Positions 1 through 33,291 of a stretch of 52,992 bases of DNA are shown here, one piece after another. This DNA is from Octopus sinensis (lineage: Eukaryota): positions 1 through 52,992 of the forward strand of contig NW_021834296.1 in the NCBI RefSeq assembly GCF_006345805.1. Reading direction: 5' to 3'. The stretch's first letter is position 1. The number at the start of each line of letters is the position of its first letter. A model generated the notes under the pieces. It ran no database searches and was not told where the DNA came from. It saw only the letters and a list, made by a program, of their open reading frames with translations. The position numbers and the translations under genes were made by a program.

Positions 1-151
1 TATGCGTATCAGTGAGTGAGTTTGTGTGTGTGTGTGTGTAAACAAACTCGTTTTTCGACTTCATTTGCATTGAAACAATATCGATGCTGTTCAACTATAT
101 TACAATGTTTTCGTGGAAATGTATGTTGCCGCCTCTGTGTGTGTGTGGTGT

Positions 152-450
152 AGGCGCAATGGCCAAGTGGTTAGGGCAGTGGATTCGCGGTTTCGATTCC
201 CAGACTGGGCGTTGTGTGTGTTTATTGGGCGAGAACACCTTAAAAGCCAGACGAGGCTCCAGCGGGGGCTGGTGGCGATCCCTCTTATACTCTTTCGCTC
301 CAACTTTCTCTCATTCTTTCTTCCTGTTTCTTGAGTAACGCTGCCATTGACTCACGTCCCGTCCATCTGGGGGAACACATACGACATAGAAACCGGGAAA
401 CCGGGCCCATGAGCCAGGCTACGCTTGAAAAGGGCGACGGTTATCGTGTT
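152..450 (+). mobile_element. tRNA-derived SINE (internally deleted copy)
   Basis: A-box-like tggccaagtgg and B-box-like ggtttcgattcc; same family as 15475-15861; inverted copy at about 3240-3512. Confidence 0.75.
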
Positions 451-616
451 TTGTGTGTGTGTGTGTATATGCTATATATAATTTCTTTTATTCTTTTACT
501 TGTTTCAGTCATTTGTAGAACACACTTGCACAAGTTGCCTGGCAGTGGGACTGAACCCGGAACCATATGGTTATGAAGCAAGCTCCTTACCACACAGCCA
601 CTCCTGCGTCTATGAT

Positions 617-648
<32 letters not shown>

Positions 649-674
649 ATATATATATTATATTATATAGAAGG

Positions 675-724
675 AGCTTCTACAGGACTAGAACTGTTTC
701 ATTCAAGAGAATCTTCAGGAAGCT
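675..724 (-). ncRNA. Type I hammerhead ribozyme motif (left arm)
   Basis: Reverse complement reads agcttc CTGAAGA ttc tctt gaa t GAAA cag ttctagtc ctg TA gaagct. Confidence 0.65.
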
Positions 725-1022
725 AGTTAACAAGAATTGTATTGGCATTTATATACATTTAGGCAGGTTTAAAGGGGTGGTGGTGGGACTTTTTGGGGGT
801 AGGCATAGCGCAAAAAAATCATACTTGGGGGAGTGGTCAAGGAGTCAGTGGTAAATTAGATAGAAGAATAAATAAAAGAATAAAAAAAGGGGGGGAATAA
901 AAAAATATATAGAAGAATAGTTTTAGGTAAATAAGGAAAATCTCACTTATACCTATACACATATGTATACATATATATACACACACACACATATACATAC
1001 ACACATACATACACACACACCC

Positions 1023-1055
<33 letters not shown>

Positions 1056-1096
1056 TACACACATACATATACATACATATATCTACATATATATAT

Positions 1097-1135
<39 letters not shown>

Positions 1136-2204
1136 CACATATACATGCATATACATATACACATACACATGTATATATACACACACACGACCACACATAC
1201 ACATACACACAAAAAAAATATATACATACACACACATACACATACACACATACACACACATATATATCCACATACACACATGCACACACAACACAGAAGT
1301 CCCTATATACTCATATATACATATACACATATATGTATATATACATATATATATATGTATATATATATACATACATATGTGTACCTATTCATACCTACAC
1401 ATACACACATATATACATACAAATACAAACCCATTCCCTAATTTTAATTTTATTATCTTCATTTATTACTTTTGTTATCTTTGACCGCTGGTCACAAGCA
1501 TCTTGGCTACGACAGCTAGTCCCTTTTATCTTTCTACTTGTGCACAAGCACTCACTCACGCACGCACACTCATTTGCACGCACACTCACTCATTCGTACA
1601 CTCATACACATACACGCACGCACGCGTTATATTCATACATACATACATCTACATACATACACGTATATACACATACGTACGCGAGTGAGTGCTTGTGCTC
1701 AAGTAGAAAGATAAAAGGGACTAGCTGTCGTAGCCAAGATGCTTGTGACCAGCGGTCAAAGATAACAAAAGTAATAAATGAAGATAATAAAATTAAAATT
1801 AGGGAATGGGTTTGTATTTGTATGTATATATGTGTGTATGTGTAGGTATGAATAGGTACACATATGTATGTATATATATATATACATATATATATATGTA
1901 TATATACATATATGTGTATATGTATATATGAGTATATAGGGACTTGTGTGTTGTGTGTGCATGTGTGTATGTGGGTATATATGTGTGTGTATGTGTGTAT
2001 GTGTATGTGTGTGTATGTGTGTATGTGTATGTGTGTGTATGTATATATTTTTTTTGTGTGTATGTGTATGTGTGGGTCCGTGTGTGTGTATATATACATG
2101 TGTATGTGTATATGTATATGCATGTATATGTGTATGTATATATATATATATATATATATGTGTATATATATATGTAGATATATGTATGTATATGTATGTG
2201 TGCA

Positions 2205-2235
<31 letters not shown>

Positions 2236-2528
2236 GGGTGTGTGTGTATGTATGTGTGTATGTATATGTGTGTGTGTGTATATATGTATACATATGTGTA
2301 TAGGTATAAGTGAGATTTTCCTTATTTACCTAAAACTCTATTCTTCTATATATTTTTTATTCCCCCCTTTTTTTATTCTTTTATTTATTCTTCTATCTAA
2401 TTTACCACTGACTCCTTGACCACTCCCAAGTATGATTTTTTTGCGCTATGCCTACCCCCAAAAAGTCCCCCACCACCACCCCTTAAACCTGCCTAAATGT
2501 ATAAATGCCAATACAATTCTTGTTAACT

Positions 2529-2579
2529 AGCTTCCTGAAGATTTCTCTTGAATGAAACAGTTCTAGTCCTGTAGAAGCT
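2529..2579 (+). ncRNA. Type I hammerhead ribozyme motif (right arm)
   Basis: Stem I agcttc/gaagct; core CTGAAGA 2535-2541; stem II ttc/gaa closed by U-U; GAAA 2554-2557; stem III cag/ctg; GUA cleavage triplet ending 2573. Confidence 0.72.
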
Positions 2580-2673
2580 CCTTCTATATAATAAATTAAT
2601 TTTACTCTGCTATGTATTGAGTACCTTTTTACTGTGGTTAACCCGAATCAACCCGGGACCTACATATATATAT

Positions 2674-2725
<52 letters not shown>

Positions 2726-2927
2726 TACATACATAGATATATACATATATATATACTATATATATACATATATATTACATACATATATATACACACATAT
2801 ATATATTATATATATACACATATATATATATACATATATATATACACGTATATATATATACAATATATATACATATATATACACACATATATATATACAC
2901 ATATATATATACACACATATTATACAT

Positions 2928-2962
<35 letters not shown>

Positions 2963-2987
2963 CTTTATATACACACACACATAGATA

Positions 2988-3019
<32 letters not shown>

Positions 3020-3512
3020 GATACATATATACATATACAAATATATATACATACACACACACACACATATATATATATATAATATTAAAGTTTTTAGTTG
3101 AACTCCTTTCGTAACCATATGGTTCCGGGTTCAGTCCCACTGCTAGGCAACTTGTGCAAGTGTGTTCTACAAATGACTGAAACAAGTAAAAGAATAAAAG
3201 AACTTATATATAGCGTATACACACACACACACACAAAACACGATAACCGTCGCCCTTTTCAAGCCTGGCCAGGCTCATGGGCCCGGTTTCCCGGTTTCTA
3301 TGGCGTATGTGTTCCCCCAGATGGACGGGACGTGAGTCAATGGCAGCCTTACTCAAGAAACAGGAAGAAAGAATGAGAGAAAGTTGGAGCGAAAGAGTAT
3401 AACAGGGATCGCCACCAGCCCCCGCTGGAGCTTCGTCTGGCTTTTAAGGTGTTCTCGCCCAATAAACACACACAACGCCCAGTCTGGGAATCGAAACCGC
3501 GATCCACCGACC

Positions 3513-5435
3513 GCTGAAGAGGCCTGAGCCATTGAGAAGATCAAACTCAATCCCAAAGTGTTCTTTTCATTTGCAAAAAAACACAGAGTCACTGGTTCTA
3601 CTGTTGGCCCTCTGATTGATGAAAATGGTACTCTTCAAGACAATGCCAAAACCATGGGAGAGATATTGCAGAAACAATATTGCTCTGTTTTCAGCAATCC
3701 TGATATGACTGATCTGGGCTGTATCAGTGATGTTACTCCCCAATACACTTTATCGGACATAACCTTTGGGGCTCCTGATGTCTTAGCAGCAATAAAGGAA
3801 ATGAAGCATAATTCAGCAGTAGGTCCCGATAGGTTCCCTGCTTGTGTCTTGAAGATGTGTCAAAACCAACTTGCACCCCTCTAGCCAAACTGTGGCGGAA
3901 CTCACTGGATGCTGGATATATACCAGAAGACCTTCTATCCCAGTCTGTTGTCCTAGTTTTCAAAAAAGGAAACAAATCGCTTGCCGTGAATTACCGTCCA
4001 ATCTCACTCACCTCTCATATCATTAAGGTATTTGAGAGAGTGCTGAGATCACGCATGACTCACTTCCTTGAGAGTCATAATATGCTGAACTCCAACCAGG
4101 ATGGATTCCGTAATGGGAGAGATTGCCTGACGCAGCTACTGCATCATTTTGATGACATTTTGAGAGCCTTGGGAGAGGGTTCCAACACTAATGTCATCTA
4201 CTTTGATTTCAGCAAGGCCTTTGACAGGGTTGATCATAAGATCCTTCTGAGAAAGCTGTCCAATATTGGTGTCACTGGAAAGCTTCTGCAGTGGATCAAG
4301 TGCTTCCTGTCTAACAGAACCCAACATGTTGTAGTCGAAGGAGCCAAATCCAGCCCAGCCAAAGTCAGCAGTGGTGTCCCACAAGGCACTGTGTTGGGCC
4401 CACTTCTCTTCATCATCTACATAAGTGATATTACTGACACCATCAAACACAGTAACATCAGAACCTTCGCTGATGATTCCAAGCTCCAGAAGGTCATCAA
4501 TGGCGTGGATGATCGAATAACCTTCAGTCAGACCTACTGGCTGTGTCCAATGGGCGGAAAAGAATAACATGTTGCTAAATGAAGACAAATTCGAACTGAT
4601 CCACTTTGGAAGGGAGGACGCTCTGAAACTCCCCTACTCTCTTCCTTCTGGAGAAATTTTCATGGCATCCAACAACATCAGAGACTTGGGAGTAACAGTG
4701 GACAACAACATAAGCTGGGCTACACATATAAGCAGCAAAGTTGACATGGCCCGCAGAATGTGTTCCTGGATTCTCGGAACCTTCCAGACGAACATTCCCA
4801 CACTATTATCCTTCTCTTCTCCACTTTTGCCCGACCCCACCTTGAATGCTGCTGTCCACTGTCGTCTCCCTACACAAAACAAAATATTATGAGAATTGAA
4901 GCTCCCCAAAGGTCAATCACAAAAATGATAGATGGCATGTCAGACCTTGACTACTGGGGTAGACTAGAGAAGCTGAAACCGTATTCACTCCAACGACGCC
5001 GTGAACGCTACATTATCTGTATGATGTGGAAAATAACCATCAGCACTGTCCGAATGATGTTGGCATCACCTTCAAAATACATCCCAGGCTTGGACCACGT
5101 GCCATCCGTCCACAACAAAAATCTAAATCGCATCACATAACGACAATAGGGCACAACTATTTCACCTCAATTGGACCCGCTCTCTTCAACATTACACCAG
5201 GACACGTCAAAACAGAAACTGACCACACAAAATTCAAGAAGTCTTTGGACAAATTCCTTCAAACAGTCTCGGACAAACCACCCACACCCGGATATGTCTC
5301 CGCAAACAATAACTCTCTGCTCGAATCGGCCTTGGTGCCCAAATCCTGAATTGAAAGACTTCGCCAGGTAGTGCTAATAAGTTAGACATGGCCTGGGCCA
5401 ATACTGGCCAAAACCTTTCTAAGTTATTCTAAGTT
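3513..5435 (+). mobile_element. 5'-truncated CR1/Jockey-group LINE, reverse transcriptase pseudogene
   Basis: Motifs YRPISLTSHIIKVFERV, YFDFSKAFD, GVPQGTVLGPLLF and FADDSK spread over frameshifted ORFs; repeated ttctaagtta tail. Confidence 0.92.
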
Positions 5436-6572: not shown

Positions 6573-6815
6573 GCGAGTGTCTTGGTCGAGATGTGACAGA
6601 GCCAGGCCGATTGTGCAACGGGACTCTGCTGCTGTGACTCCCGCTACTGAAGACTTTTTTGCGCTGCAGGAACCACCACAAGACAAGACAACTCAAACAA
6701 GAAGTTTTAGACATTTATACTCTGTGTTCTGCACTAACCAAATCTGTTTCTTCTGATATTAGAAGCTGTCTGTGTGTCAGTAAACAGGCGAAGCACCGAA
6801 AAGAAAACAACAGCC

Positions 6816-7447
6816 ATGAAGAATCTCGTTCTTTTCTTATTTCTTTTCGTCGTTGGTCTTTGGGTGACTGAAGGACAACGGGTGACTAACGGGTCAGTGG
6901 TGACTAAAGGACCGTCAGTGAATAGTGGAGGACAGAATGTCACATTAGGGGACAAAGACCCGTCGGTAAATGATGTTTCATCGGATAATGAAGAGCCAGA
7001 AGAGAGTGGAGCAGAATCAGATGACGAAGGAGAGTTAGAGGGTGGAGAGGAATCAGAGGAGGACGGAGTCCCGGTGGATGACGAGTCGTCAGAGGACGGT
7101 GAAGACGAGTCAGTGGATGGAGAGGAGTCAGTGAATGAAGACGAGTCAGAGGGTGAAGACTCAGACAATGGAGGACTATGGGTGGACGATGACGAGTCAG
7201 TGGACGGAGACGAGTCAGTGGATGAAGGCGAGTCAGTGGATGAAGACTCAAACGATGGAGGACTATCAGTGGGTGACGACGAGTCAGTGGACGAAGAGGA
7301 GTCAGCGGATGAAGCAGATTCCGAGAGTGAAGATGAAGCAGCGACTGAGAGTCTCTTACTGAATAATGGAACGTCGGTTTCTAGCGAAACGCTTGATTCT
7401 GGAAACTCAACAACCGAAGGAGAAAGCCTTGCTGTGTCCAGTTCTCG
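6816..7447 (+). CDS. Secreted EMI/EGF protein, exon 1: signal peptide and acidic D/E/S-rich domain
   Basis: gccATG; MKNLVLFLFLFVVGLWVTEG; ~190 aa acidic region with DESVD repeats; donor CG|gtaagt (phase 2). Confidence 0.88.
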
Positions 7448-7869
7448 GTAAGTTAATGCTTCATTCCACCCGGTTTCACATCGCCACTTTCCTCTTCGGG
7501 GCTTCTTGTGGTTTTTTACTTTTTTCTTATTAAATAATCGGACCGTGTCTATCTTCGTGTGAATGTTTTAAGTGTTTTAGTGAAAAGAGAGGAGTTGAGC
7601 CCGTAGCTCTGTTCAGGGCCCCTGGCATATGTGGGAAGCAATGGGTGAGGTGGGGCTTGGCCCTAACAATTGCAACAGAAGGGACTCAGTGTACCTGAAT
7701 TACACCAGCATTTGTAGTTTTTATGTCGATCTGTTTTTACTTAGCCCAGTGCATCTCTGTCAGTAGGTAGAAATGAAAACCCATAGCCTGTATATCATAA
7801 CTGTATTTTTTCAAACAGTCCTCCATAGATCCCTCTTTTTCTTTAATATATGATGAGATATTCTTTTCT

Positions 7870-8260
7870 ACTTGAGGCACAAGGCCCGAAATTTGGAGGG
7901 AGGGGGCCAGTCGATTATATCGACCCTAGTGCGTAACTGGTACATATTTAATCGACTCCGAAAGGAAGAAAGGCAAAGTCGACCTCGGCGTAAATTGAAC
8001 TCAGAACCTAACGGCAGACGAAATACCTATTTCTTTACTACTCACAAGGAGCTAAACACAGAGAGGACAAACAAGAACAGACAAAGGGATTAAGTCGATT
8101 TTATCGACCCCAGTGTGTAACTGGCACTTAATTTATTGACCGCGAAAGGATGAAAGGCAAAGTCGACCTCGGCGGAATTTGAACTCTGAACGTAACGGCA
8201 GACGAAATACCGCTAAGCATCTCGCCCGGCGTGCTAACGTTTCTGCCAGCTCGCTTCTTT
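7870..8260 (-). mobile_element. Dimeric tRNA-derived SINE
   Basis: Two tandem copies of gaaaggcaaagtcgacctcggc; same family as 9605-9780 and 34818-35468. Confidence 0.75.
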
Positions 8261-8957
8261 AATACGATGAGATATTGACATACGACTGGGCAGACGATCT
8301 CTCCTAAAAGTACTTGACTTGTTTTCCTGATCCTTGCATCAATATAGGGTCCGCTGTATTTAATCCTGTTTGCTGATTCTATTGGGATGTTCCACCAACT
8401 TTCTGGATATATTCTGGTTCTGTTGCGCCAATCTTCAACAAGCCAGATTCCTGTAACGGAGCGACGAACCTGAAGGGGCCCAAATAAAACTGTTTCAAAT
8501 AATAATGATAATTAGTGTGATTTCAAATTTCTGCCACAAGAGCAGCTTGGGGTGAGGTGAGGGCGAGTCGATTACATAGAGCCTAGTCTGTTATTTTCTC
8601 GACGTTGAAAGGAAGAAAGCAAAGTGCACTTTGGGGAATTCGAAATCAGAACGGAGCGACGGGTCAAATATAGCTTAAACAACCCTTATTCAACATCCTT
8701 AAACAACCCTTATTCAGTGAACTTTGGAGTGGGATGGGCTTCTCGACCAGAAGAAAATTCTAACTGGTCCCCACCTGCAAGATCATGCGCTATTTATCTT
8801 GATATGAGATCACCATGTCCCGCACATATGGTTGTGATGCATGTGCCTGGGGTACCCTTATCAGACGGGTAGTCATGATGGGTATACTGAGCTTCGTATA
8901 TTTTACCACGGTGTCACTTTGATGGCATGCACTGCTCTCTCACTCAATAATAATAAT

Positions 8958-10830
8958 TTCTTTTTTCGCCACTAAGGGTTTACACAAAAGGGGCTGCTCA
9001 TTGAAACCCCACAAAAACAACGATCACTCTGACATCTAGGGTGTATGCTCTCTTCACTTCATGTGCCCTTAATGTACAGGCGCGTACTTCTAGAAAGACC
9101 ATTCACTAGGGCCATTCGAGCTACATTCACCCATCTTTTAACAAAATTGCTAGGTGGCAGCACTTCCCTCTTTACCCTCACTTTGAGATTCTGGGTAAAG
9201 AGGAAAGTGTCTGTCTTCAGCCCTTTCAGCAAGGTCCACCAGGCAACCTCTTTCGCTATGGCCACTAGACTAAGCAAAGATGCCTGTCCCTCCCGGTTGG
9301 AAGAAAGCAGCGGGCTGATACTTACCAATAACTTAGCTGAAATCCGAATCCGTCCTCCAAGTGGGAGCAGTTCTTCGATGTCAGTTCTTCGATGATAAGC
9401 GCCGACCCCTTTGCTAACAGCCTGCTCAAAAGTTTGATGTCTGTGTTCAGCAGCGTTATGAACCTAGCTTTCTATTTCATCTCCCTTGTTTGGGTCCATT
9501 TTTAGCAGTGCCACCGCTCCTAGACTCACAGAATTGGGAAATAGCCTGTTCTGGTACCAGTTACGGTAGCAGTTCTGGCAGATCTGCTAGAAGGCTGTCA
9601 AACAAAGGCGGATCGTTAGCACGACGGGAGAAATGCTTAGCGGTATTTCGACTGCCGTTACGTTGTGAGTTCAAATTCCGCCGAGGTCGACTTTGCCTTT
9701 CATCTTTTCGGGATCGATTAAATAAGTACCAGTAACACACTGGGATCGATATAATCGACTTAATCCGTTTGTCCATCCTACGTTCTGGATATCTTTACGT
9801 TCCACACATTTGCCAAAGGGATGTTGAAATACCTCACACATCTTCTCCGGTTGGAGTTCCTTGCGCCCATTTTGGTCCACCAAAGACTGAATAGTGACTT
9901 TGCTTTGACGTTGTGCGTCTGTCATTCGACCCCCATTATGGGGCTTTCCTTCCCTCTTCTCTTACAGAGTGCACCTTAGATCTGACAAGGCAACCTTCGT
10001 GTTTATCTTTGAGCAAATGGTCCAGAGCTAATCTTGCAGCAAGCAGGTCAGCTGCAATGTTCTTCCAAAGCGCCATTTCGAAGTTACTGACTAAATTCCC
10101 TTCTGTTTTATCCATCTCTACCACTAATGCTTTAATAAACCTACCTAACGCCAACCATCATTTGTTGTTGACGATTAGCCCCATCAACGCCATCTTAGTT
10201 AATTGTCTAATTCGGTCTCTGTTGGATTGGCACTTTGGGAGCAACGCTTTCAGCCTCCAGTAACCGGATCCCTGCCTTCTAAGCCTATCTAGGTTAACAA
10301 CTTCTACTAACGTTAATCTACTTGCCTATAGAACCCCGTTCCTCATCAAAATACGACCTGGTTGACCCCATACAGGCTTTTACCATCCGCTTTCTATTCG
10401 CTAGACCCACACAGTCCAATTGTATCTCTAAGGCACCGTACCAGTTGCCCACTAACTCTAAATTTCGAGGCATTCCTAGGAATACCTCTCGATGTCTGAA
10501 GATATACGGCTTCCCTGCTTCTATCGGAGTATAAACAGGTACCTGTCTGTAAGTACCCCCGTCACTACAATTCGCATCCAGGACCATCATCTCTCCTTCT
10601 GGATCCAGGAAGATAGTCCTTATGTTGAGATCCATGCCCCTACGGATCAACGCCGCCGTTCAACCTCCGATTCCCGGTTGACATGGAGATAAATACTTCT
10701 CGTATCCCGCGAAAGATGGCAAGAAAGCATGTCGGTCGGAAAGTCTAGTTTCACTGATGGCGATTACATCGACACTTAGTGATCTAATGTCGTTGAGTAG
10801 TGGCCTTGTTTCCAAGGCGATCGCAAGTCA
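8958..10830 (-). mobile_element. Internally deleted Tx1/L1-like LINE relic with a SINE inserted at about 9605-9780
   Basis: APE endonuclease-like LLNDIRSLSVDVIAISETRL near 10745-10800; C-terminal KRWVNVARM; many stops; no RT core seen. Confidence 0.65.
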
Positions 10831-10984
10831 GTTCTTTGTATATTCGTCTTTTTATATCTCTGGAACCCCCCACCCATTCCTTCAAGGGATTTTATTTTTA
10901 TAGTGTTATATGCGTTTATATGTATATGTATATATATTTATACACACACACACACTTATATATTCCTTCTTTCTTTTTTTCCAG

Positions 10985-11077
10985 GGGAATATGTCGAGTG
11001 AGATGTTATAAAACCGTGACCTACAAAAGGGCCCGAAGAAGCTGGTGCTGGTTTTTGAGACGGTGTACAAAATACCG
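10985..11077 (+). CDS. Exon 2: EMI domain, N-terminal half
   Basis: ttttccag| GICRVRCYKTVTYKRARRSWCWFLRRCTKYR |gtaaat; 93 nt, phase 2-2, matches exon 1. Confidence 0.85.
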
Positions 11078-11333
11078 GTAAATACGAAGCCACCTTTCCG
11101 GATTTTCTATACAGAGTAAACTTTCAATATTACGGCATCCACCGATGACAAAGTATTCATTACCCTCGCACATTAATATCTTAATATTTCGCTTGGGCAT
11201 AGCGAAAATAACAATATGGTGTAGAACTCAATCTAGGTGTGATCCAGAATTCAATTGTAGATAAGTGTAAAATGGTAAGAGAAAGCAAAGAAATGGCACC
11301 GGCAAAAACAAAGGTTATGTAACGCACTTCATT

Positions 11334-11414
11334 GGCTAACAGCTGTTTCTGATGTAGGTTGTGGTGGAGGATTAGTTGAGTACCAGGATATCATGCTCTA
11401 GCTTCATCAGAGCC
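11334..11414 (-). ncRNA. Degenerate hammerhead-like motif
   Basis: Reverse complement ggct CTGATGA ... GAAA c agct g TT agcc; stems I and III are good, stem II is poorly paired. Confidence 0.35.
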
Positions 11415-11597
11415 TTCAATGTGAAAAGCACTTTATTTAGGATAATCGCATTTTCAGACTACACAGTCGTATATTCTGAAAGTGTAACTTGTATGTGTGT
11501 ATGTATGTGTTTGTGTGGTTGTCTGAACTTACCATCATTGTGTTATATATCCTTCTGGTTATATATCCTTTTATTCTATCCTTCTCTCATTTAACAG

Positions 11598-11674
11598 TAC
11601 AGCTTCCAGGAGAATCCTTACAACCTGTCGCAGATGCTGCAGAGGATGGACCGGCACGCCTGGAAGGTGCAGAG
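11598..11674 (+). CDS. Exon 3: EMI domain, C-terminal half
   Basis: ttaacag| TASRRILTTCRRCCRGWTGTPGRCR |gtaaga; CCxGW motif; phase 2-1. Confidence 0.87.
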
Positions 11675-12481
11675 GTAAGAACATGTGTTCAGTTCTCTCC
11701 GGATGTTATGTGTAGATAAGGCCTAATATTTTCTTGATATTTTCTATTTTATATCCAAATATGACATCCAATGGTCTCGTTTCAAATTTCCTTTTTCTTT
11801 CGTATCACAATCCTTTGAAGAAAGACATCGCTATTTCTTCCATTTTATTTTTCCTGTTTTATATTGTAATATATGCAAATGAGCGTCGTATCGTCCCGTC
11901 TTCTTTCCACCATATTTGATCAGATGGAGTGCATTTTGATGTATGTAATCCCTTTGCCACAGCAACTGAGCTGAGAAAGGTCTGACTTCTGTTAAAAGAA
12001 CATGGTGCATCAAACTTATTCTACAATAGGCAAAAGGCCTGATATTTTGTGGTCAGGTGGGGGTCAGTCGATTACATTGAGCCTAATATTTCAATGGCGC
12101 TCATTTCATCGACTCCGAAACGATGGATTCCAACGTCGACATTGGCAGATTTTGAACTTGTTACGACGAAATAACGCTAAGAACTTTGTCCGGCGTTTTC
12201 ACGACTCTGCCAGCTCACCGCCTTAATAATAACAACCACAATGTTGATGACGATGATGACGATGATGATGATGATGATGAGGATGGTACAAAAATTTCTA
12301 ACTGGGCCCCACCTGCAAGGTCATGTGCTGTTTATCTTGATATGAGATCCCCATGTCGCACACATATGGTTGTGATGCATGTGCCTGGTGTACCCTTGTG
12401 AGACGGGTTCTCATGAGCAGTATACTGGGCTTCGTATATTATATCCCAGTGTCACTTTGATGACATGCACTGCTCTCTCAC

Positions 12482-12534
<53 letters not shown>

Positions 12535-12789
12535 TTCACTAAATTTTGGAGAAGGGGACTAGTCGATTACATCGACCTCAGTGTATAACTGGTGCTTATT
12601 ACATTGACCCAACCCCAAATAATGCATCTGTTTTATATACATGCAATTAAGCGCAATAAATTTGTTTTCTTGACCCTGAAAGAAAGGCGGATTTGAACAC
12701 AGAATGTAAAGACGGACAAAATGCCGCCAAACATTTTTACCGTCGTGCAAACGATTCTGCTAACGACGACGACGACCACGATGATAATT

Positions 12790-12827
<38 letters not shown>

Positions 12828-12892
12828 AATGATGATGTTGAAAGGATTCTGATTGTTATATATAATTGTGTTATTTCTGTTCTGCTTTCCAG

Positions 12893-13012
12893 CCGTCGGA
12901 GGAGCGTGCAGATGGAATCGGTGCGGGAAGAATGGTAGATGCGTCAGGAGAGGAACCTCTTTTACTTGTTACTGCAGACGGGGCTATTATTTCAATAGAA
13001 GAACATGTGTTT
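12893..13012 (+). CDS. EGF-like exon, type A (copy 1)
   Basis: ttccag| AVGGACRWNRCGKNGRCVRRGTSFTCYCRRGYYFNRRTCV |gtaagt; 120 nt, phase 1-1, six Cys. Confidence 0.9.
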
Positions 13013-13091
13013 GTAAGTAAAGGACAAACAGCAGCTACAAGAACAATATACACACGTATATCTATAAGCAATTGGCTGGGAGATAATAATA

Positions 13092-13127
<36 letters not shown>

Positions 13128-13161
13128 CAACTACAACAGCAACAACAACAACAACAACAAC

Positions 13162-13214
<53 letters not shown>

Positions 13215-13763
13215 TAACAATAATAATAATAATGATAACAATTATAATAATAAATGCCCCACAGTGGCTTTCATGGTTTCTGATCTTAACTGATTCGAAG
13301 TTTTGGGCTGCAGCACATATTCTGCTCAGTACAACAGATTTGCTTGTCATTTGTTTGACCTTAACCAGTTTGAGCATGTCCCTTAGTGGCTGACGATTTG
13401 TGCATCTCTGATCATGAGCAGAAGTAGTGGGGGAGCATCATAGCCACGTGTTGAGAGGCATTCTTGGAGGTTTGGATAATTCACCTTTGGAAACATGGGT
13501 GGTTTGTTCAACATCCTTAAACAATTTATTTAGGGACGTTTTGAGCGGGATGGGCTACTCCAACTGAAGACATTTCCAACTGGGCCCCACCTGCAAGGTC
13601 ATGTGCTGTTTATCTTGAAATGAGATCATCATGTGGCACACATGTGGTTGTGAAACATGTGCCTAGTATACCCTTATCAAACGGGTAGTCATGATGGGTA
13701 TACTGGGCTTCGTATATTTTACCCTAGTGTCACTTTGATGACAAGTACTGTTCTCTCTCTCTC

Positions 13764-13818
<55 letters not shown>

Positions 13819-14540
13819 TTAATCCCTTTTACTGTAGGCAGAAGGCCTGAAATTTTAGCGGTGGGGGATAGTCGATCACATCGCTCCCCTCCCGCCACTG
13901 TTTCAGTGGTTTTTGTTACAATCCTCCCAGCGTACCACCTGAAGAATAACACCAACCAAAACATCAATATCAATAATGATGGTGGTGATGCTGCTGCTGA
14001 TGATGATGATAATTATGATGATGAAGATGATGGTGGTGATGGTTATGATGAGGATGATGATGATGATGAGATGATGATGATGATGATGATGATGATAATG
14101 ATGATGAAGATGATGGTGATGATGATGATGATGATGATAATGATGAAGATGATGATGATGGTTATGATGAGGATGATGATGATGATGATAATGGTGGTGA
14201 TGATGATGATGGTGGTGATGGTGGTGGTGATGATGATGATGACGACGATGATGATGATGGTAATGATGAGGATGTTGATGATGATGATGATAATGATGAT
14301 GAAGATGATGATGGTGGTGGTGGTGATGATGATGATGATGACGAAGACGATGATGATGGTTATGATGATGATGATTATGATGATTATGATGATGAAGATG
14401 ATGATGGTGGTGGTAGTGGTGATGATGATGATGATTATGATGATGACGACGATGATGATGATGATGGTTATGATGAGGATGGTGATGATGATGATACATA
14501 AGTGTTACATCCATGCAATGAATTTGTTTTACTTTTCCAG

Positions 14541-14660
14541 ACAGAAACGAGTGCAGATGGAAGTATGTGTGCGGAAGATACGGGAGATGCATCAACACCC
14601 CAGGATCCTACAGATGTTTCTGTCGTCGAGGTTTCCGTTTCAATGGGAGAACATGCGTTG
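14541..14660 (+). CDS. Calcium-binding EGF exon, type B (copy 1)
   Basis: ttccag| [39 protein letters not shown] |gtaagt; NEC and CxNTxGSY consensus. Confidence 0.9.
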
Positions 14661-14989
14661 GTAAGTGAAGCAGAATAGACAACAACAACAACAACACACG
14701 TTTATGTATAAGTAATAATCTTTTCTACTCTAGACAGAAGGCCTGGAATTTTGGTGTGTGGTAAGTCGATTACGTCGACCCCACTACTCACCTGGTACTC
14801 AATTTATCGACCCCAAAACGATGGAAGGCAAAGTCGACCTCTGTGAAATTTGAACTCAGAACGTAGCGACATACGAAATACCGCAAAGATTTCGCCCCGC
14901 ACGCTAACGACTCTGCCAGCTCGAGACCTTAATAAAAATAATAATAATAATAATAATAATAATATAATAATAATAATAATAATAATAAC

Positions 14990-16140
14990 TGAGACATGGC
15001 TACGGTTGCATAAAGGAAGTTTAAAATGGGAGAAATTTTTTAGTAGCAGCACGGGATCAAGTTTTAAGGACTAATTGGATAAACACCAAGATATACAAAA
15101 ACCAATTAGATTCCAAATGTAGCCTATGCAAATCAAAGGAAGAAGGCATTTCTCATATAGTAATTGAATATAGCATGACGTCACAGAAAGAATTCAAGAA
15201 AATATATGACATCTTCGGTAGAGTAATCCACTGGGATTTGTGTGGACATCTAGGATTTTTAACATGCTGACAAATGGTATGAACACGAACCTGGAAAAGT
15301 ATTAGAAAGTAAGAAATATAAGATGTTGTGGGAGTTCGTCATTCAGACTGACAGTAATAGAAGCTAGAAGGCCTGATTTGGTAGCAGAAGATAAAGAGAA
15401 TAGAAAGTGCCAGATAACCGACTTTACGGTCCCAAATGATGAAAACATTAATATGGGAAGTATAGAAAAAAAATGAGGCCCAATGGCCCACTGGTTAGGG
15501 CAGCGGACTCGCGGTCATAGGATCGCGGTTTCGATTCCCAGACCGGGCGTTGTGAGTGTTTATTGAGCGAAAACACCTAAAAAGCTCCACGATGCTCTGG
15601 CAGGGGATGGTGGTGATCCCTGCTGTGCTCTTTCACCACAACTTTCTCTCACTCTTACTTCCTGTTTCTGTTGTACCTGTATTTCAAGGGGCCGGCCTTG
15701 TCACTCTCAGTGTCACACTGAATTTCCCCGAGAACTACGTTAAGGGTGCACGTGTCAGTGGAGTGCTCAGCCACTTACACGTTAATTTCACGAGCAGGCT
15801 GTTCCATTGATTCGGATCAACCGGAACCATCATCGTCGTAACCAACGGAGTGCTTCCATCCATAGAAAAAATAGCAGAGTACCAGGACGTAGCCATTGAA
15901 TTACCGAAACTATGGAAAGTGCGGGTAAAATGCGTCCCAGTAGTTATAGGAGCATTGGAAACTATCCCTAAAGGTCTGAACAGATGGAGAGAGGACATAG
16001 GCAGAAAACCCAGTTTCGTACAGCTCCAGAAAACAGTGTTATTATGGACAGCTAAGAAGCTTAGGAGGGATCTTGGCATCTAAGGTTACTTGCTGCAACC
16101 CAATAGGTGGGTTCTTGATATTTAAGGCGGCTTGTAGACC
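14990..16140 (+). mobile_element. 3' fragment of an R4/Dong-like non-LTR element (restriction-like endonuclease); duplicate at about 19185-20340
   Basis: HWDLC, WYEHEP, RRPDLV, VPVVIGAL and LQKTVLL motifs; frameshifted; interrupted by a SINE. Confidence 0.75.
15475..15861 (+). mobile_element. Full-length tRNA-derived SINE with target-site duplication; duplicate at 19672-20057
   Basis: A and B boxes; flanked on both sides by atagaaaaaa, splitting the host coding sequence at IEK. Confidence 0.85.
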
Positions 16141-16203
16141 CCTGTTTGGGTCTTTTCTTTTCTAACAGTCTGGCTGGTTGTGTGTATATGAATAATAATA
16201 ATA

Positions 16204-16260
<57 letters not shown>

Positions 16261-16381
16261 TAATAATGATGGTGATGATGATGATGATTGATGATGATGA
16301 TGATAATAATAATAATAATGATGATGATGATGATGTGTGATGATGATGATGATGATGAGATGATGATGATGATGATGATGT

Positions 16382-16433
<52 letters not shown>

Positions 16434-16717
16434 AATGATGATTTCCAAATTGCCACAGAGGGCAAGTAATTCTGGGTCGGGGATAAGTCGATTACATCGA
16501 CCCCAGTGAACATCTGTTACTTATTCAATCGACCCGGAAGCGATGAAAGGCAAAGTTGACGTCTGTGGTGTTTGAACTTAGAAAGAACAGACGCTGTCGA
16601 AATGACACCCGGTGTGGTAACTATCTGTCATTATGATGATGATCATGATGATGATGATGATGATGAAAGAATTCTGATTGTTATATATAATTGTGTTATT
16701 TCTGTTCTGCTTTCCAG

Positions 16718-16837
16718 CCGTCGGAGGACCGTGCAGATGGAATCGGTGCGGGAGAAATGGTAGATGCGTCAAGAGAGGAACCTCTTTCACTTGTTACTGC
16801 AGACGGGGCTATTATTTCAATAGAAGAACATGTGTTG
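16718..16837 (+). CDS. EGF-like exon, type A (copy 2)
   Basis: AVGGPCRWNRCGRNGRCVKRGTSFTCYCRRGYYFNRRTCV; canonical splice sites, 120 nt. Confidence 0.88.
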
Positions 16838-16907
16838 GTAAGTAAAGGACAAACAGCAGCTACAAGAACAATATACACACGTATATCTATAAGCAATTGG
16901 CTGGGAG

Positions 16908-16999
<92 letters not shown>

Positions 17000-17304
17000 A
17001 AGAAGAAAAAAGATAATAATAATTAATTCGCTTATTCGCCACAAGGGCTAACAAAAATCAATTATACCATAAAGGGACAAAACACAGGACTAAAGTTACA
17101 AAGTGTTTTTCCGTTTGAAAAATCCGTGTAAAAATCAGTGTAACAACGAACATATTTAATGTCACAAACTTTTGGGGGAATCGGTCTAGTCGATTACATC
17201 GACCCCAGAGTATAACTGGTGCTTATTACATTGACCCAACCCCAAATAATGCATCTGTTTTATATACATGCAATTAAGTGCAATAAATTTGTTTTCATTT
17301 GCAG

Positions 17305-17424
17305 ATGTAAACGAGTGTAGAAGGAGTTTTCGATGCGGTAGATACGGGAAATGCGTCAACACAATAGGGTCCTACAAATGTTTGTGTAAACCAGGGTTCC
17401 GTTTCAATGGGAGAACATGTGTTC
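17305..17424 (+). CDS. Calcium-binding EGF exon, type C (copy 1)
   Basis: ttgcag| [40 protein letters not shown]; weak donor gtagat, read-through gives RR-stop at 17432. Confidence 0.82.
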
Positions 17425-17798
17425 GTAGATAAAGCACACAACAACAACAAAACGTGTAAGTATAAGTAATTGGGTTGAATTCTTCGGGGTTTGGATAATT
17501 CACCTTTGGAATCGTGGGTGTTTCGTTCAACATCCTTAAACAACCCTTATTCAGGAAATTTTTTAAAGGGATAGGCTACTCGACCAAAAGAAAATTCTAA
17601 CTGGGCCCTCCCCTCCCCAGAAAGGTCAGGTGCTATTTATCTTCATATGAGGTCACCATGTCGCGCACATATGGTTGTGATGCATATGCCTGGTCTACCC
17701 TTATCAGACGGGTATTCATGATGGGTATACTTGGCTTCTTATATTTTACCCCAGTGTCACTTTGATGGCATGCACTGCTCTCTAACTCAATAATAATA

Positions 17799-17851
<53 letters not shown>

Positions 17852-18736
17852 TTAATCCCTTTTACTATAGGCAGAAGGCCTGAAATTTTAGCGGTGGGGG
17901 TTAGTCGATCACATCGCTCCCCTCCCGCCACTGTTTCAGTGGTTTTTGTTTACAATCCTCCCAGCGTACCACCTGAAGAATAACACCAACCAAAACATCA
18001 ATATCAATAATGATGGTGGTGATGGTGGGGGTGATGCTGCTGCTGATGATGATGATAATTATGATGATGAAGATGATGGTGGTGATGGTTATGATGAGGA
18101 TGATGATGATGATGATGATGATGATGGTGGTGATGATGATGGTGGTGATGGTGGTGGTGATGATGATGATGACGACGATGATGATGATGGTTATGATGAG
18201 GATGGTTATGATGAGGATGGTTATGATGAGGATGGTGAAGATGATGAAGATGATGATGATGGTGGTGGTGGTGATGATGATGATGATGATGATATGATGA
18301 TGAAGATGATGGTGATGATGATGATAATGACGACGATGATGATGATGGTTATGATGAGGATGGTGATGATGATGATGATGATGATGGTGGTGATGATGAT
18401 GGTGGTGGTGATGATGATGGTGATGATGATGATGACGACGATGATGATGATGGTAATGATGAGGATGTTGATGATGATGATGATAATGATGATGAAGATG
18501 ATGATGGTGGTGGTGGTGATGATGATGATGATGACGAAGACGATGATGATGGTTATGATGATGATGATGATGATGATGATTATGATGATGAAGATGATGA
18601 TGGTGGTGGTAGTGGTGATGATGATGATGATGATTATGATGATGACGACGATGATGATGATGGTTATGATGAGGATGATGATGATGATGATACATAAGTG
18701 TTACATCCATGCAATGAATTTGTTTTACTTTTCCAG

Positions 18737-18856
18737 ACAGAAACGAGTGCAGACGGAAGTATGTGTGCGGAAGATACGGGAGATGCATCAACACCCCAGG
18801 ATCCTACAGATGTTTCTGTCGTCGAGGTTTCCGTTTCAATGGGAGAACATGCGTTG
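18737..18856 (+). CDS. Calcium-binding EGF exon, type B (copy 2)
   Basis: [39 protein letters not shown]; one W>R change from copy 1. Confidence 0.82.
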
Positions 18857-19124
18857 GTAAGTGAAGCAGAATAGACAACAACAACAACAACACACGTTTA
18901 TGTATAAGTAATAATCTTTTCTACTCTAGACAGAAGGCCTGGAATTTTGGTGTGTGGTAAGTCGATTACATCGACCCCACTACTCACCTGGTACTCAATT
19001 TATCGACCCCAAAACGATGGAAGGCAAAGTCGACCTCTGTGAAATTTGAACTCAGAACGTAGCGACATACGAAATACCGCAAAGATTTCGCCCCGCACGC
19101 TAACGACTCTGCCAGCTCGACACC

Positions 19125-19186
<62 letters not shown>

Positions 19187-20403
19187 TGAGACATGGCTAC
19201 GGTTGCATAAAGGAAGTTTGAAATGGGAGAAATTTTTTAGTAGCAGCACGGGATCAAGTTTTAAGGACTAATTGGATAAACACCAAGATAGACAAAAACC
19301 AATTAGATTCCAAATGTAGCCTATGCAAATCAAAGGAAGAAGGCATTTCTCATATAGTAATTGAATATAGCATGACGTCACAGAAAGAATTCAAGAAAAT
19401 ATATGACATCTTCGGTAGAGTAATCCACTGGGATTTGTGTGGACATCTAGGATTTTTAACATGCTGACAAATGGTATGAACACGAACCTGGAAAAGTATT
19501 AGAAAGTAAGAAATATAAGATGTTGTGGGAGTTCGTCATTCAGACTGACAGTAATAGAAGCTAGAAGGCCTGATTTGGTAGCAGAAGATAAAGAGAATAG
19601 AAAGTGCCAGATAACCGACTTTACGGTCCCAAATGATGAAAACATTAATATGGGAAGTATAGAAAAAAAATGAGGCCCAATGGCCCACTGGTTAGGGCAG
19701 CGGACTCGCGGTCATAGGATCGCGGTTTCGATTCCAGACCGGGCGTTGTGAGTGTTTATTGAGCGAAAACACCTAAAAAGCTCCACGATGCTCTGGCAGG
19801 GGATGGTGGTGATCCCTGCTGTGCTCTTTCACCACAACTTTCTCTCACTCTTACTTCCTGTTTCTGTTGTACCTGTATTTCAAGGGGCCGGCCTTGTCAC
19901 TCTCAGTGTCACACTGAATTTCCCCGAGAACTACGTTAAGGGTGCACGTGTCAGTGGAGTGCTCAGCCACTTACACGTTAATTTCACGAGCAGGCTGTTC
20001 CATTGATTCGGATCAACCGGAACCATCATCGTCGTAACCAACGGAGTGCTTCCATCCATAGAAAAAATAGCAGAGTACCAGGACGTAGCCATTGAATTAC
20101 CGAAACTATGGAAAGTGCGGGTAAAATGCGTCCCAGTAGTTATAGGAGCATTGGAAACTATCCCTAAAGGTCTGAACAGATGGAGAGAGGACATAGGCAG
20201 AAAACCCAGTTTCGTACAGCTCCAGAAAACAGTGTTATTATGGACAGCTAAGAAGCTTAGGAGGGATCTTGGCATCTAAGGTTACTTGCTGCAACCCAAT
20301 AGGTGGGTTCTTGATATTTAAGGCGGCTTGTAGACCCCTGTTGGGTCTTTTCTTTTCTAACAGTCTGGCTGGTTGTGTGTATATGAATAATAATAATAAT
20401 AAT

Positions 20404-20463
<60 letters not shown>

Positions 20464-20569
20464 TAATAATGATGGTGATGATGATGATGATGATGTTGGT
20501 GTTGATGATCATAATGATGATAATGATGATGATGATGATGTGTGATGATGATGATGATGATGATGATGT

Positions 20570-20633
<64 letters not shown>

Positions 20634-20917
20634 AATGATGATTTCCAAATTGCCACAGAGGGCAAGTAATTCTGGGTCGGGGATAAGTCGATTACATCGA
20701 CCCCAGTGAACATCTGTTACTTATTCAATCGACCCGGAAGCGATGAAAGGCAAAGTTGACGTCTGTGGTGTTTGAACTTAGAAAGAACAGACGCTGTCGA
20801 AATGACACCCGGTGTGGTAACTATCTGTCATTATGATGATGATCATGATGATGATGATGATGATGAAAGAATTCTGATTGTTATATATAATTGTGTTATT
20901 TCTGTTCTGCTTTCCAG

Positions 20918-21037
20918 CCGTCGGAGGAGCGTGCAGATGGAATCGGTGCGGGAGAAATGGTAGATGCGTCAAGAGAGGAACCTCTTTCACTTGTTACTGC
21001 AGACGGGGCTATTATTTCAATAGAAGAACATGTGTTG
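20918..21037 (+). CDS. EGF-like exon, type A (copy 3)
   Basis: AVGGACRWNRCGRNGRCVKRGTSFTCYCRRGYYFNRRTCV; canonical splice sites. Confidence 0.82.
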
Positions 21038-21107
21038 GTAAGTAAAGGACAAACAGCAGCTACAAGAACAATATACACACGTATATCTATAAGCAATTGG
21101 CTGGGAG

Positions 21108-21145
<38 letters not shown>

Positions 21146-21154
21146 TAATAATAA

Positions 21155-21185
<31 letters not shown>

Positions 21186-21472
21186 AAGAAGAAGAAGAAG
21201 AAGAAAAAAGATAATAATAATTAATTCGCTTATTCGCCACAAGGGCTAACAAAAATCAATTATACCATAAAGGGACAAAACACAGGACTAAAGTTACAAA
21301 GTGTTTTTCCGTTTGAAAAATCCGTGTAAAAATCAGTGTAACAACGAATCGGTCTAGTCGATTACATCGACCCCAGAGTATAACTGGTGCTTATTACATT
21401 GACCCAACCCCAAATAATGCATCTGTTTTATATACATGCAATTAAGTGCAATAAATTTGTTTTCATTTGCAG

Positions 21473-21592
21473 ATGTAAACGAGTGCAGAAGGAGTTTTCG
21501 ATGCGGTAGATACGGGAAATGCGTCAACACAATAGGGTCCTACAAATGTTTGTGTAAACCAGGGTTCCGTTTCAATGGGAGAACATGTGTTC
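21473..21592 (+). CDS. Calcium-binding EGF exon, type C (copy 2)
   Basis: Same peptide as copy 1; weak donor gtagat; read-through stop at 21600. Confidence 0.8.
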
Positions 21593-21995
21593 GTAGATAA
21601 AGCACACAACAACAACAAAACGTGTAAGTATAAGTAATTGGCTTGAATTCTTCGGGGTTTGGATAATTCACCTTTGGAATCGTGGGTGTTTCGTTCAACA
21701 TCCTTAAACAACCCTTATTCAGGAAATTTTTTAAAGGGATAGGCTACTCGACCAAAAGAAAATTCTAACTGGGCCCTCCCCTCCCCAGAAAGGTCAGGTG
21801 CTATTTATCTTCATATGAGGTCACCATGTCGCGCACATATGGTTGTGATGCATATGCCTGGTCTACCCTTATCAGACGGGTATTCATGATGGGTATACTT
21901 GGCTTCTTATATTTTACCCCAGTGTCACTTTGATGGCATGCACTGCTCTCTAACTCAATAATAATAATAATAATAATATAATAATAATAATAATG

Positions 21996-22049
<54 letters not shown>

Positions 22050-31917: not shown

Positions 31918-32148
31918 TATAATTAATCAATATAGGGTGGCAAAAAAAATTTTGTAGAATTCCTTTTGCCACCAGCGGCCTAGTGGGAAAAAATTAAATA
32001 GTCACAGACCATTTTTAAGTTCAACATCAACAATCAAGGAACGGCCATAATAGGCCATTCACCCACTAGAAATAACAGCCAAAGCTTCAACCGCAAATAA
32101 AGATTAATTCCGTAAACAGGAGAAAATTTAAAAAACATTTACCCTGTA

Positions 32149-32255
32149 ATTTCTTGTACGATGTACCGTTTCATCTGCTGTTTAATGGTAAACTAACCTG
32201 ATTAAATTAAATCAAGCCAATCTTCCATAGGCCCTCAGATTCTTCAGCAAGAAAT
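32149..32255 (-). ncRNA. Type I hammerhead ribozyme, extended stem II (unit 1)
   Basis: Reverse complement of the motif at 33185-33291. Confidence 0.8.
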
Positions 32256-32639
32256 AGCCAAGTCGGAACAGATATTTTCACGAGGCATTTCCGACCCTGC
32301 CAAGGCAATATCTGACCTAAAATTTTCAAATCGTCGCACTCGCGCCAAATTTATCGGCAGCAAATAAATATAAGCCGCCGATTCCATTACGGAATTAACC
32401 AGAAAATCCATAATTAATCAATATAGGGTGGCAAAAAAAATTTTGTAGAATTCCTTTTGCCACCAGCGGCCTAGTGGGAAAAAATTAAATAGTCACAGAC
32501 CATTTTTAAGTTCAACATCAACAATCAAGGAACGGCCATAATAGGCCATTCACCCACTAGAAATAACAGCCAAAGCTTCAACCGCAAATAAAGATTAATT
32601 CCGTAAACAGGAGAAAATTTAAAAAACATTTACCCTGTA

Positions 32640-32746
32640 ATTTCTTGTACGATGTACCGTTTCATCTGCTGTTTAATGGTAAACTAACCTGATTAAATTA
32701 AATCAAGCCAATCTTCCATAGGCCCTCAGATTCTTCAGCAAGAAAT
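32640..32746 (-). ncRNA. Type I hammerhead ribozyme, extended stem II (unit 2)
   Basis: Identical copy 491 bp downstream of unit 1. Confidence 0.8.
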
Positions 32747-33184: not shown

Positions 33185-33291
33185 ATTTCTTGCTGAAGAA
33201 TCTGAGGGCCTATGGAAGATTGGCTTGATTTAATTTAATCAGGTTAGTTTACCATTAAACAGCAGATGAAACGGTACATCGTACAAGAAAT
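33185..33291 (+). ncRNA. Type I hammerhead ribozyme, extended stem II (inverted copy)
   Basis: atttcttg CTGAAGA atctg [insert] cagat GAAA cg gtacat cg TA caagaaat; 8-bp stem I, 5-bp stem II base. Confidence 0.8.

What the first reader, a model, noticed from the sequence alone, without database searches (positions are those of the whole stretch)
6816..21600. Secreted bipolar protein: polyanionic N-terminus plus EMI and Arg-rich EGF repeats, missed by the ORF track
Seen: phase-consistent exons give a signal peptide, ~190 acidic aa, an EMI domain and up to seven EGF modules, each with roughly 8-9 Arg/Lys, many aromatics and at most two acidic residues. Established: EMI plus EGF occurs in EGFL7/8, MEGF10/Draper and Nimrod proteins; mussel Mfp-2 is a basic EGF-repeat adhesive with acidic ends. 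Inference: a lineage-specific self-coacervating adhesive or matrix protein, or a cationic microbe-binding protein masked by an acidic pro-region.
Basis: partly seen in the sequence, partly recalled or inferred. Interest (0 to 1): 0.72.

Follow-up and report, generated by a model that had tools for sequence, protein, structure and literature searches.

The report
Charge-split secreted octopus EMI-EGF protein
This spliced octopus gene encodes a likely secreted protein with a strongly acidic front half and an almost equally basic back half of probably four (not seven) EGF repeats; it belongs to an unstudied, fast-changing octopus gene family and likely binds negatively charged surfaces such as microbes, with the acidic half predicted to mask it until needed.

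Summary
The gene is real, but shorter than claimed. Public contigs join exons 2-3 and 3-4 at GT..AG. The fourth EGF exon ends in an in-frame stop (9 of 9 copies). Five of 7 near-identical genomic copies carry only four EGFs; the window's extra three are a 97% tandem duplicate behind the stop.

The model is 429 aa with no transmembrane segment: signal peptide, 190-aa linker (net -67), EMI-like head and four EGFs (net +57). The head misses the Pfam EMI cut-off but has EMI intron phases and an EMI-like predicted fold.

The gene belongs to a family found only in Octopus records, with at least ten divergent loci. Linker length, EGF number (2 to over 30) and EGF charge vary widely. Head exons of some paralogs diverge faster than their introns.

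Best reading (0.4): a secreted cationic recognition or defence protein masked by its acidic linker, as in proMBP. Rival (0.3): a matrix or adhesive protein. Tissue and function are untested. The scan earlier noted a probable long-array relative in another octopus genome.

The parts
6623..6815 (+). 5' untranslated part of exon 1 (true start not known)
   Evidence: contigs of runs X1, X4 and X6 run without a break from 6623-6636 into the coding part
6816..6875 (+). Predicted signal peptide (about 20 aa), the most conserved part of the family
   Evidence: sequence; alignment A1; only hydrophobic stretch of the model; no signal-peptide program was run
6876..7447 (+). Acidic low-complexity linker, residues 21-210, net -67, 34 Ser, four N-glycosylation sequons, three Ser-Gly; ends in a motif conserved across the family
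   Evidence: no Pfam match
10985..11077 (+). Exon 2, first half of the EMI-like head (phase 2-2)
11598..11674 (+). Exon 3, second half of the EMI-like head with the CC-x-G-W motif (phase 2-1)
12893..13012 (+). EGF 1 (type A, calcium-binding consensus lost), net +10
   Evidence: PF00008 22 bits vs cut-off 21.5
14541..14660 (+). EGF 2 (type B, cbEGF-like; first ligand is Tyr when spliced to EGF 1), net +9
   Evidence: PF07645 31.9 bits vs cut-off 27
16718..16837 (+). EGF 3 (type A), net +10
17305..17432 (+). EGF 4 (type C, full cbEGF consensus) with in-frame stop TAA 17430-17432; decayed donor at 17425; possible 3'-UTR donor at 17456
   Evidence: PF07645 39.2 bits
18177..22024 (+). Tandem duplicate (97%) of 13999-17856, lying behind the first stop; present in 2 of 7 gene copies
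18737..18856 (+). Duplicate type-B EGF exon (usable only if exon C1 is skipped or its weak donor is used)
20918..21037 (+). Duplicate type-A EGF exon
21473..21600 (+). Duplicate type-C EGF exon with its own in-frame stop

Best explanation
This spliced gene encodes a likely secreted 429-residue protein whose arginine-rich EMI-like head and probably four EGF repeats would grip negatively charged surfaces, most likely of microbes or damaged cells, while a charge-matched acidic linker is predicted to mask that grip during storage and secretion. Shown: exon structure, splicing up to the first EGF exon, the charges (-67 and +57), absence of a membrane anchor, and membership of a multigene family found only in Octopus records. 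Strongly inferred: the protein stops after EGF 4, the gene being a truncated offshoot of paralogs that end in further conserved exons. Inferred: secretion; a long disulfide-closed hairpin head whose variable tip sets ligand preference; binding to polyanions (teichoic acid, LPS, sulfated glycans, phosphatidylserine); intramolecular masking that is released by proteolysis or by competition from the target surface.
For: Splicing and model. Stop in 9 of 9 type-C exons, and four-EGF layout in 5 of 7 copies. The family's terminal exon has 8 matches in G000, none on C27 or on the contigs of these 7 copies. EGF charge lies far outside background. The three genes with linkers of -67 to -69 have the most basic EGFs (mean +7.4 to +9.2); the four genes with neutral or acidic EGFs have linkers of -4 to -17 (Spearman -0.68, n=9, p=0.045, genes not independent). 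Head exons diverge faster at codon positions 1+2 than flanking introns in 4 of 6 paralog comparisons (C10 vs C9588: 22/104 vs 92/1490, p=1e-6; window vs C9588: 16/50 vs 178/1011, p=0.012). The differences appear to cluster at the hairpin tip (by eye). Precedents: acidic propiece neutralising basic MBP-1 (PMC11483036, passages); secreted NimB2 opsonin binding a lipoteichoic-acid-dependent determinant (10.64898/2026.08.28.747790, abstract); EMI domain predicted to bind phosphatidylserine (PMC13751773, passages).
Against: No tissue, protein or functional data. There is no R-x-x-R site at the linker/head junction; the first is at residue 226, inside the head, so cleavage is unsupported. Two paralogs (C26a, C26b) have basic EGFs with short linkers (-13, -11), so masking is not required across the family. 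Two of 6 head comparisons (window vs C10, p=0.23; C1 vs C5, p=0.13) and the one EGF comparison (p=0.41) show no acceleration. pN/pS in exon 2 is about 1 (0.219/0.233), so dN/dS above 1 is not shown; intron conversion or alignment bias could explain the gap. The head is identical in protein in all 7 close copies. Seawater-level salt would weaken purely electrostatic masking (general knowledge). Tandem-EGF proteins known from octopus and mussels are structural.
Confidence: 0.4

Rival explanations
1. A structural matrix, mucus or cement protein: the acidic and basic halves pair between molecules or with sulfated glycans and chitin, condense, and set into a cuticle, mucus or egg-string cement.
For: Near-zero net charge with 51 Arg and 32 aromatic residues in the basic half. 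An octopus tandem-EGF structural protein exists (octovafibrin, PMC10336842, parts 1-4 of 6 read). Basic mussel mefp-2 adheres to GlcNAc polymers through EGF domains (PMC11697411, passages). EMI domains occur in multimer-forming matrix proteins (PMC2901201, passages). Long-array paralogs with 9 to more than 30 EGFs look like fibres or stalks.
Against: No cross-linking or oligomerising end domain; every Cys is accounted for by the head and EGFs (8 + 24). Fast head divergence among paralogs is not expected of a bulk material. No localisation data.
Confidence: 0.3
2. A fast-evolving reproductive secretion (spermatophore, oviducal or egg-coat protein) in which the variable head mediates gamete or egg-surface recognition and the charges package it in granules.
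For: Rapid divergence, copy-number turnover and secretion are typical of reproductive proteins (general knowledge). Octopus egg cases use a tandem-EGF protein.
Against: An oviducal gland transcriptome paper does not mention EGF, fibrillin or fibulin proteins in its main text (PMC8976471, term search; weak). Exon 1 is held at half or more of its words by 14 listed runs, tissues unknown.
Confidence: 0.12
3. An ordinary EGFL7/fibulin-like extracellular-matrix paralog. The acidic linker grew by slippage of GA-rich repeats and the charge balance is coincidental or only aids solubility; the recent amplification has no special function.
For: The linker is built of short repeats and differs in length even between near-identical copies (210 vs 245 codons). 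The charge correlation rests on 9 related genes. Substitutions among close copies are about neutral in kind (about 10 amino-acid-changing to 3 silent codons).
Against: Long acidic linkers occur with the most basic EGFs in both the C8 pair and this subfamily, whose introns are closer to those of the neutral C10/C9588 genes. EGF charge is extreme.
Confidence: 0.18

Closest known systems
Octopus records annotated by similarity: CAI9741403.1 (P0014, 'fibulin-1-like'), XP_014783437.1 (P0013, 'adhesion GPCR E2'), XP_029651374.2 (P0011, 'LTBP2-like'), XP_036361583.1 (P0016, 'fibrillin-2-like')
   Same: Same family: signal peptide, linker-end motif and cbEGF repeats in all four, the 8-Cys head (7 Cys in some) in P0011, P0013 and P0014
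   Different: Short linkers. Their names are automatic and misleading (no 7TM, TB or fibulin domain in Pfam). No paper found for the six accessions searched. The window's own protein was not seen among the hits.
EGFL7/EGFL8 (PMC2901201, passages)
   Same: Signal peptide, EMI, a non-calcium EGF followed by a calcium-binding EGF; secreted
   Different: No C-terminal coiled coil; a 190-aa acidic linker; EGF pair doubled; head shorter with an extra Cys pair; canonical EMI exons exist elsewhere in G000
Pro-eosinophil major basic protein, PRG2 (PMC11483036, passages)
   Same: Acidic N-terminal piece in front of a very basic, disulfide-rich extracellular domain that has lost calcium ligands (works-like comparison)
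   Different: Unrelated fold (C-type lectin vs EMI-EGF); cleavage and toxicity untested here
Secreted Nimrod B opsonins, e.g. NimB2 (10.64898/2026.08.28.747790, abstract)
   Same: Secreted Nimrod protein that coats anionic bacterial surfaces; EGF-like repeats (recalled)
   Different: EGF class differs (cbEGF here; no PEAR1-like EGF hit); no sequence link found
Mussel Mfp-2 (PMC9999432 and PMC11697411, passages) and octovafibrin (PMC10336842)
   Same: Secreted molluscan tandem-EGF proteins; Mfp-2 is basic (pI 9.1-9.5, 45 kDa, 11 EGF)
   Different: Octovafibrin has C-type lectin ends and 29 non-calcium EGFs. Mfp-2 carries DOPA and, as recalled, is Lys-rich with no EMI; this protein is Arg-rich (51 R, 9 K in the basic half).

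Membership tests
EMI domain (PF07546) | HMM score above the curated cut-off (25 bits) | tested here: not met
   0 of 8 database family proteins at E<=1; 1 of 4 isolated heads at E=0.26; the window's exons are not among 5 genome matches
EMI domain (PF07546) | C-terminal CC-x-G-aromatic ... C motif (consensus quoted in PMC13751773) | tested here: met
   CC-x-G-W and the last Cys are invariant in 9 of 9 aligned heads; spacing two residues longer than the quoted consensus
EMI domain (PF07546) | Six or seven cysteines | tested here: not met
   Eight Cys in the window's head; C4 and C8 of a C-x3-C pair plus a further Cys are conserved
EMI domain (PF07546) | EMI fold | tested here: inconclusive
   Atlas structure search with paralog P0013 55-114: 7 of 10 rows align to PF07546 parts, 2 more to MEGF10/11 N-termini, TM 0.55-0.78, each under the naming bar, predicted models only; own model is a long hairpin, pLDDT 77.5; no PDB match above Z 2.6
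EMI domain (PF07546) | Shared exon layout with canonical EMI exons of the same genome | tested here: met
   One first-half exon is phase 2-2 and two second-half exons are phase 2-1, as in window exons 2 and 3; one further exon could not be delimited
Calcium-binding EGF (PF07645) | Score above 27 bits and calcium consensus | tested here: met
   Met for type B (31.9) and type C (39.2); type A scores 12.8-13.2 and is not calcium-binding
EGFL7/EGFL8 | C-terminal coiled-coil region after two EGFs | tested here: not met
   Model ends two residues after EGF 4
MEGF10/Draper/Nimrod receptors | Transmembrane segment and cytoplasmic tail | tested here: not met
   Maximum 19-residue hydropathy after the signal peptide is 0.25; 0 candidate downstream phase-1 exons with a hydrophobic stretch
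Mfp-2-type adhesive | DOPA modification and presence in a cured adhesive | not testable with these tools
   15 Tyr available; no proteomic data
Octovafibrin | N- and C-terminal C-type lectin domains | tested here: not met
   No lectin domain in any exon or family protein
proMBP-type masked cationic effector (works-like) | Acidic pro-piece that matches a basic domain in charge | tested here: met
   -67 vs +57
proMBP-type masked cationic effector (works-like) | Proteolytic removal of the pro-piece and cytotoxic activity | not testable with these tools
   No furin-type site at the junction, only a single Arg

The most novel reading that the evidence does not exclude
Octopuses have built their own diversified family of soluble recognition and defence proteins from EMI and EGF modules. 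A variable hairpin head picks the target, the EGF rod is tuned from acidic to extremely basic, and the most basic members have, possibly twice independently, grown a charge-matched acidic safety catch: a convergent octopus counterpart of pro-major basic protein.
Probability: 0.25. Interest if true: 0.72.

Novelty: new variant of a known kind. Interest (0 to 1): 0.45.

Why it matters
Cephalopod immune effectors and secreted materials are poorly catalogued. This family is hidden under wrong automatic names (fibrillin, fibulin, LTBP, adhesion GPCR). It offers a natural series in which one scaffold varies head sequence, rod length and charge. That makes both the masking and the coacervation ideas directly testable with small recombinant proteins, and could yield salt-tolerant cationic binders or antimicrobials.

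Tried and rejected
Seven-EGF protein: rejected as unlikely (stop in 9 of 9 C exons, decayed donor, 5 of 7 copies lack the second block). Receptor: rejected (no hydrophobic exon). Pure assembly artefact for the second B-A-C block: not favoured, since contig C11577 has the same block with different variants, but not excluded. The true number of gene copies is unresolved: 7 assembled, 0-17 mismatches in about 4,100 intron bases, two placed on C27.

No RNA holder listed on record (kinds are guesses). Reads over the 3' part of the gene were not obtained, so the last splice and 3' UTR are unconfirmed. A word-index search with exon 1 found nothing; one with EGF C gave only generic fibrillins. PDB sequence search with the head: 0 hits. 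Foldseek and VIA-align with the head model gave only weak hairpin matches, uninformative. Atlas feature scores of 0.75-0.84 are leads only. A tree from signal peptide, linker end and exon 3 left the window's gene unresolved (the protein-tree part of that script failed), so independent origin of the long linkers is not shown. No EGF exons were found for C11, C27c- and C10758 in the charge table, so these 3 of 12 rows were dropped; C9 was not in it.

Literature: ten searches found no paper on this family. Supplements of the skin-mucus and ink proteomes gave no hit even for 'fibrillin', so they are uninformative. The supplement of PMC11431876 could not be read; its text names an 'EGF-containing fibulin-like' mucus protein that may or may not be a family member. 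Term searches in PMC9712504, 10.1101/2021.07.10.451900, PMC13252362, PMC12607849 and PMC8976471 showed nothing on the family.
Full report
OBSERVATION. The window is contig C10767 of G000, a 2.7-Gb genome; database relatives of the gene are named only from the genus Octopus. Exon 1 (6816-7447) encodes a hydrophobic N-terminus and an acidic low-complexity region. Exons 2 and 3 (10985-11077, 11598-11674) encode a 57-residue, 8-Cys head. Seven 120-nt phase-1 EGF exons follow in the order A1 B1 A2 C1 B2 A3 C2. A six-frame pattern scan found no other EGF exon in the window.

SPLICING. Contigs of four public runs (kind 'RNA?' is the tool's guess) were laid on 6600-13075. The exon 2-3 joint is listed in 4 of 4 runs and the exon 3-A joint in 3 of 4, both GT..AG. 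The exon 1-2 joint is not among the rows shown (85 hidden). However, the contigs that end at the exon 1 donor have lengths of 412, 377, 427 and 439 nt, equal to their exon 1 part plus 93 plus 77, with remainders 0, 0, 17 and 29. Their depths reproduce the exon 2 bin exactly in 3 runs and equal the depths of the exon 2-3 joint in all 4. One loose end in X6 continues from an A exon into the start of a C exon. Reads over the 3' part were not obtained.

NUMBER OF EGFs. Exon C reads into TAA at 17430-17432. Its donor is C|GTAGAT, while the other 8 donors are GTAA..; the sequence behind it resembles the intron start behind exon B, so an internal exon has lost its donor. The block 13999-17856 is repeated at 18177-22024 with 97% identity. 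G000 holds 7 near-identical copies of the gene. Five have only A-B-A-C, two (this window and C11577) have the extra B-A-C, and all 9 C exons end in the stop. The family's usual terminal exon has 8 matches in G000, none near these copies. The likely product is 429 aa; a 509-aa six-EGF form by skipping C1 is open.

COMPOSITION. Residues 21-210 carry 70 D/E and 3 K/R (net -67). Residues 211-429 carry 60 K/R (51 Arg), 3 D/E and 32 aromatic residues (net +57, pI 10.9). The four EGFs are net +10, +9, +10 and +7, against -3.3 +/- 2.4 (maximum +4) for 106 EGFs from 8 fibrillin-like proteins. Types B and C pass Pfam cbEGF; type A does not. There is no transmembrane stretch and no furin-type site at the linker end.

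THE HEAD. It fails Pfam EMI and has eight Cys. It keeps the CC-x-G-aromatic motif described for EMI (PMC13751773, passages). It has the same intron phases as three Pfam-EMI-scoring exons of G000. A paralog head is modelled as a long beta-hairpin. In the Atlas structure search, 9 of 10 rows are EMI-containing or MEGF10/11-type proteins at TM 0.55-0.78, each under the naming bar. I call it EMI-like: probably homologous, but not a Pfam member.

THE FAMILY. Exon 1 searches and 58 further stretches of G000 showed 13 further exon-1 loci, three of them with identical exon 1. They share the signal peptide and a linker-end motif, with linkers of 41-190 residues in the genes tabulated. EGF number runs from 2 to at least 32 and mean EGF charge from -2.8 to +9.2. 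A profile of exon 1 found 7 proteins among 1.84 billion representatives; the 6 with names are Octopus records under automatic names. This shows only that exon 1 has no detectable relative elsewhere in that library. The three genes with linkers of -67 to -69 have the most basic EGFs, and the four genes with neutral or acidic EGFs have short linkers. Two basic genes with short linkers are exceptions (rho -0.68, n=9, related genes). By intron homology the window's gene is closest to the neutral C10/C9588 genes (about 80% over 1.1 kb), but the tree is unresolved. Head exons exceed intron divergence at codon positions 1+2 in 4 of 6 comparisons, strongest between C10 and C9588 (22/104 vs 92/1490). 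They do not for window vs C10, C1 vs C5, or the first EGF. pN/pS is near 1, so this is a sign of fast change, not proof of positive selection.

MECHANISM. Best reading (0.4): a secreted cationic binder for anionic microbial or cell surfaces, masked by its own acidic linker. It would work like proMBP (PMC11483036, passages) and recognise targets like soluble Nimrod opsonins (10.64898/2026.08.28.747790, abstract). Rivals: matrix or adhesive protein (0.3), with octovafibrin (PMC10336842, parts 1-4 of 6) and mefp-2 (PMC11697411 and PMC9999432, passages) as precedents; ordinary EGFL7-like matrix paralog with incidental charge balance (0.18; PMC2901201, passages); reproductive secretion (0.12). Everything beyond gene structure, composition and family pattern is inference.

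NOVELTY. EMI plus EGF is a known architecture, and related Octopus proteins are in databases, though misnamed. Ten literature searches found no study of the family; subscription journals and some supplements were not seen. An earlier scan note describes a probable long-array relative in another octopus genome. The verdict is a new variant of a known kind, interest 0.45.

Noticed in passing
G000:C10:4109000-4157000 (L051-L053, L079, L080) and C9588: Paralogs with at least 32 and 13 near-identical neutral or acidic EGF exons, each preceded by a (GAT)n tract, behind a basic variable head; array ends not reached.
   Followed up: partly
G000:C8:72621062 and 72628172 (L035, L036): Head-to-head paralog pair 7 kb apart with nearly identical exon 1 but very different head and EGF exons, suggesting conversion or exon shuffling.
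   Followed up: partly
G000:C27:21185356-21195838 and 21327306-21316623: Two copies of the window's gene lie tail to tail about 120 kb apart near the end of C27; in all 7 copies the DNA downstream is 97-100% alike as far as window 27100.
   Followed up: partly
window 1-3500: Long fold-back: arms 185-480/3207-3502 (96%) and 829-1564/1676-2427; may be a real palindrome or a long-read artefact.
   Followed up: no
window 31919-33414: 491-bp tandem repeat (2.4 copies, 99%) that turns into a 100% inverted copy at 33100.
   Followed up: no
window 3540-5350, 9900-10850, 15000-16080 and 19200-20280: Decayed non-LTR retroelement pieces; RVT_1 at 3884-4537 (E=1e-26) and weak zf-RVT at 15025-15270; the 9900-10850 piece is judged by eye only.
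   Followed up: partly
window 29800-31600 and 39080-41300: GT-rich satellite of about 630 bp and a repeat of about 700 bp, seen by eye.
   Followed up: no
G000:C26 (L041, L042), C8 (L033): Several paralog exons carry single-base frameshifts as assembled; pseudo-exons or consensus errors.
   Followed up: no
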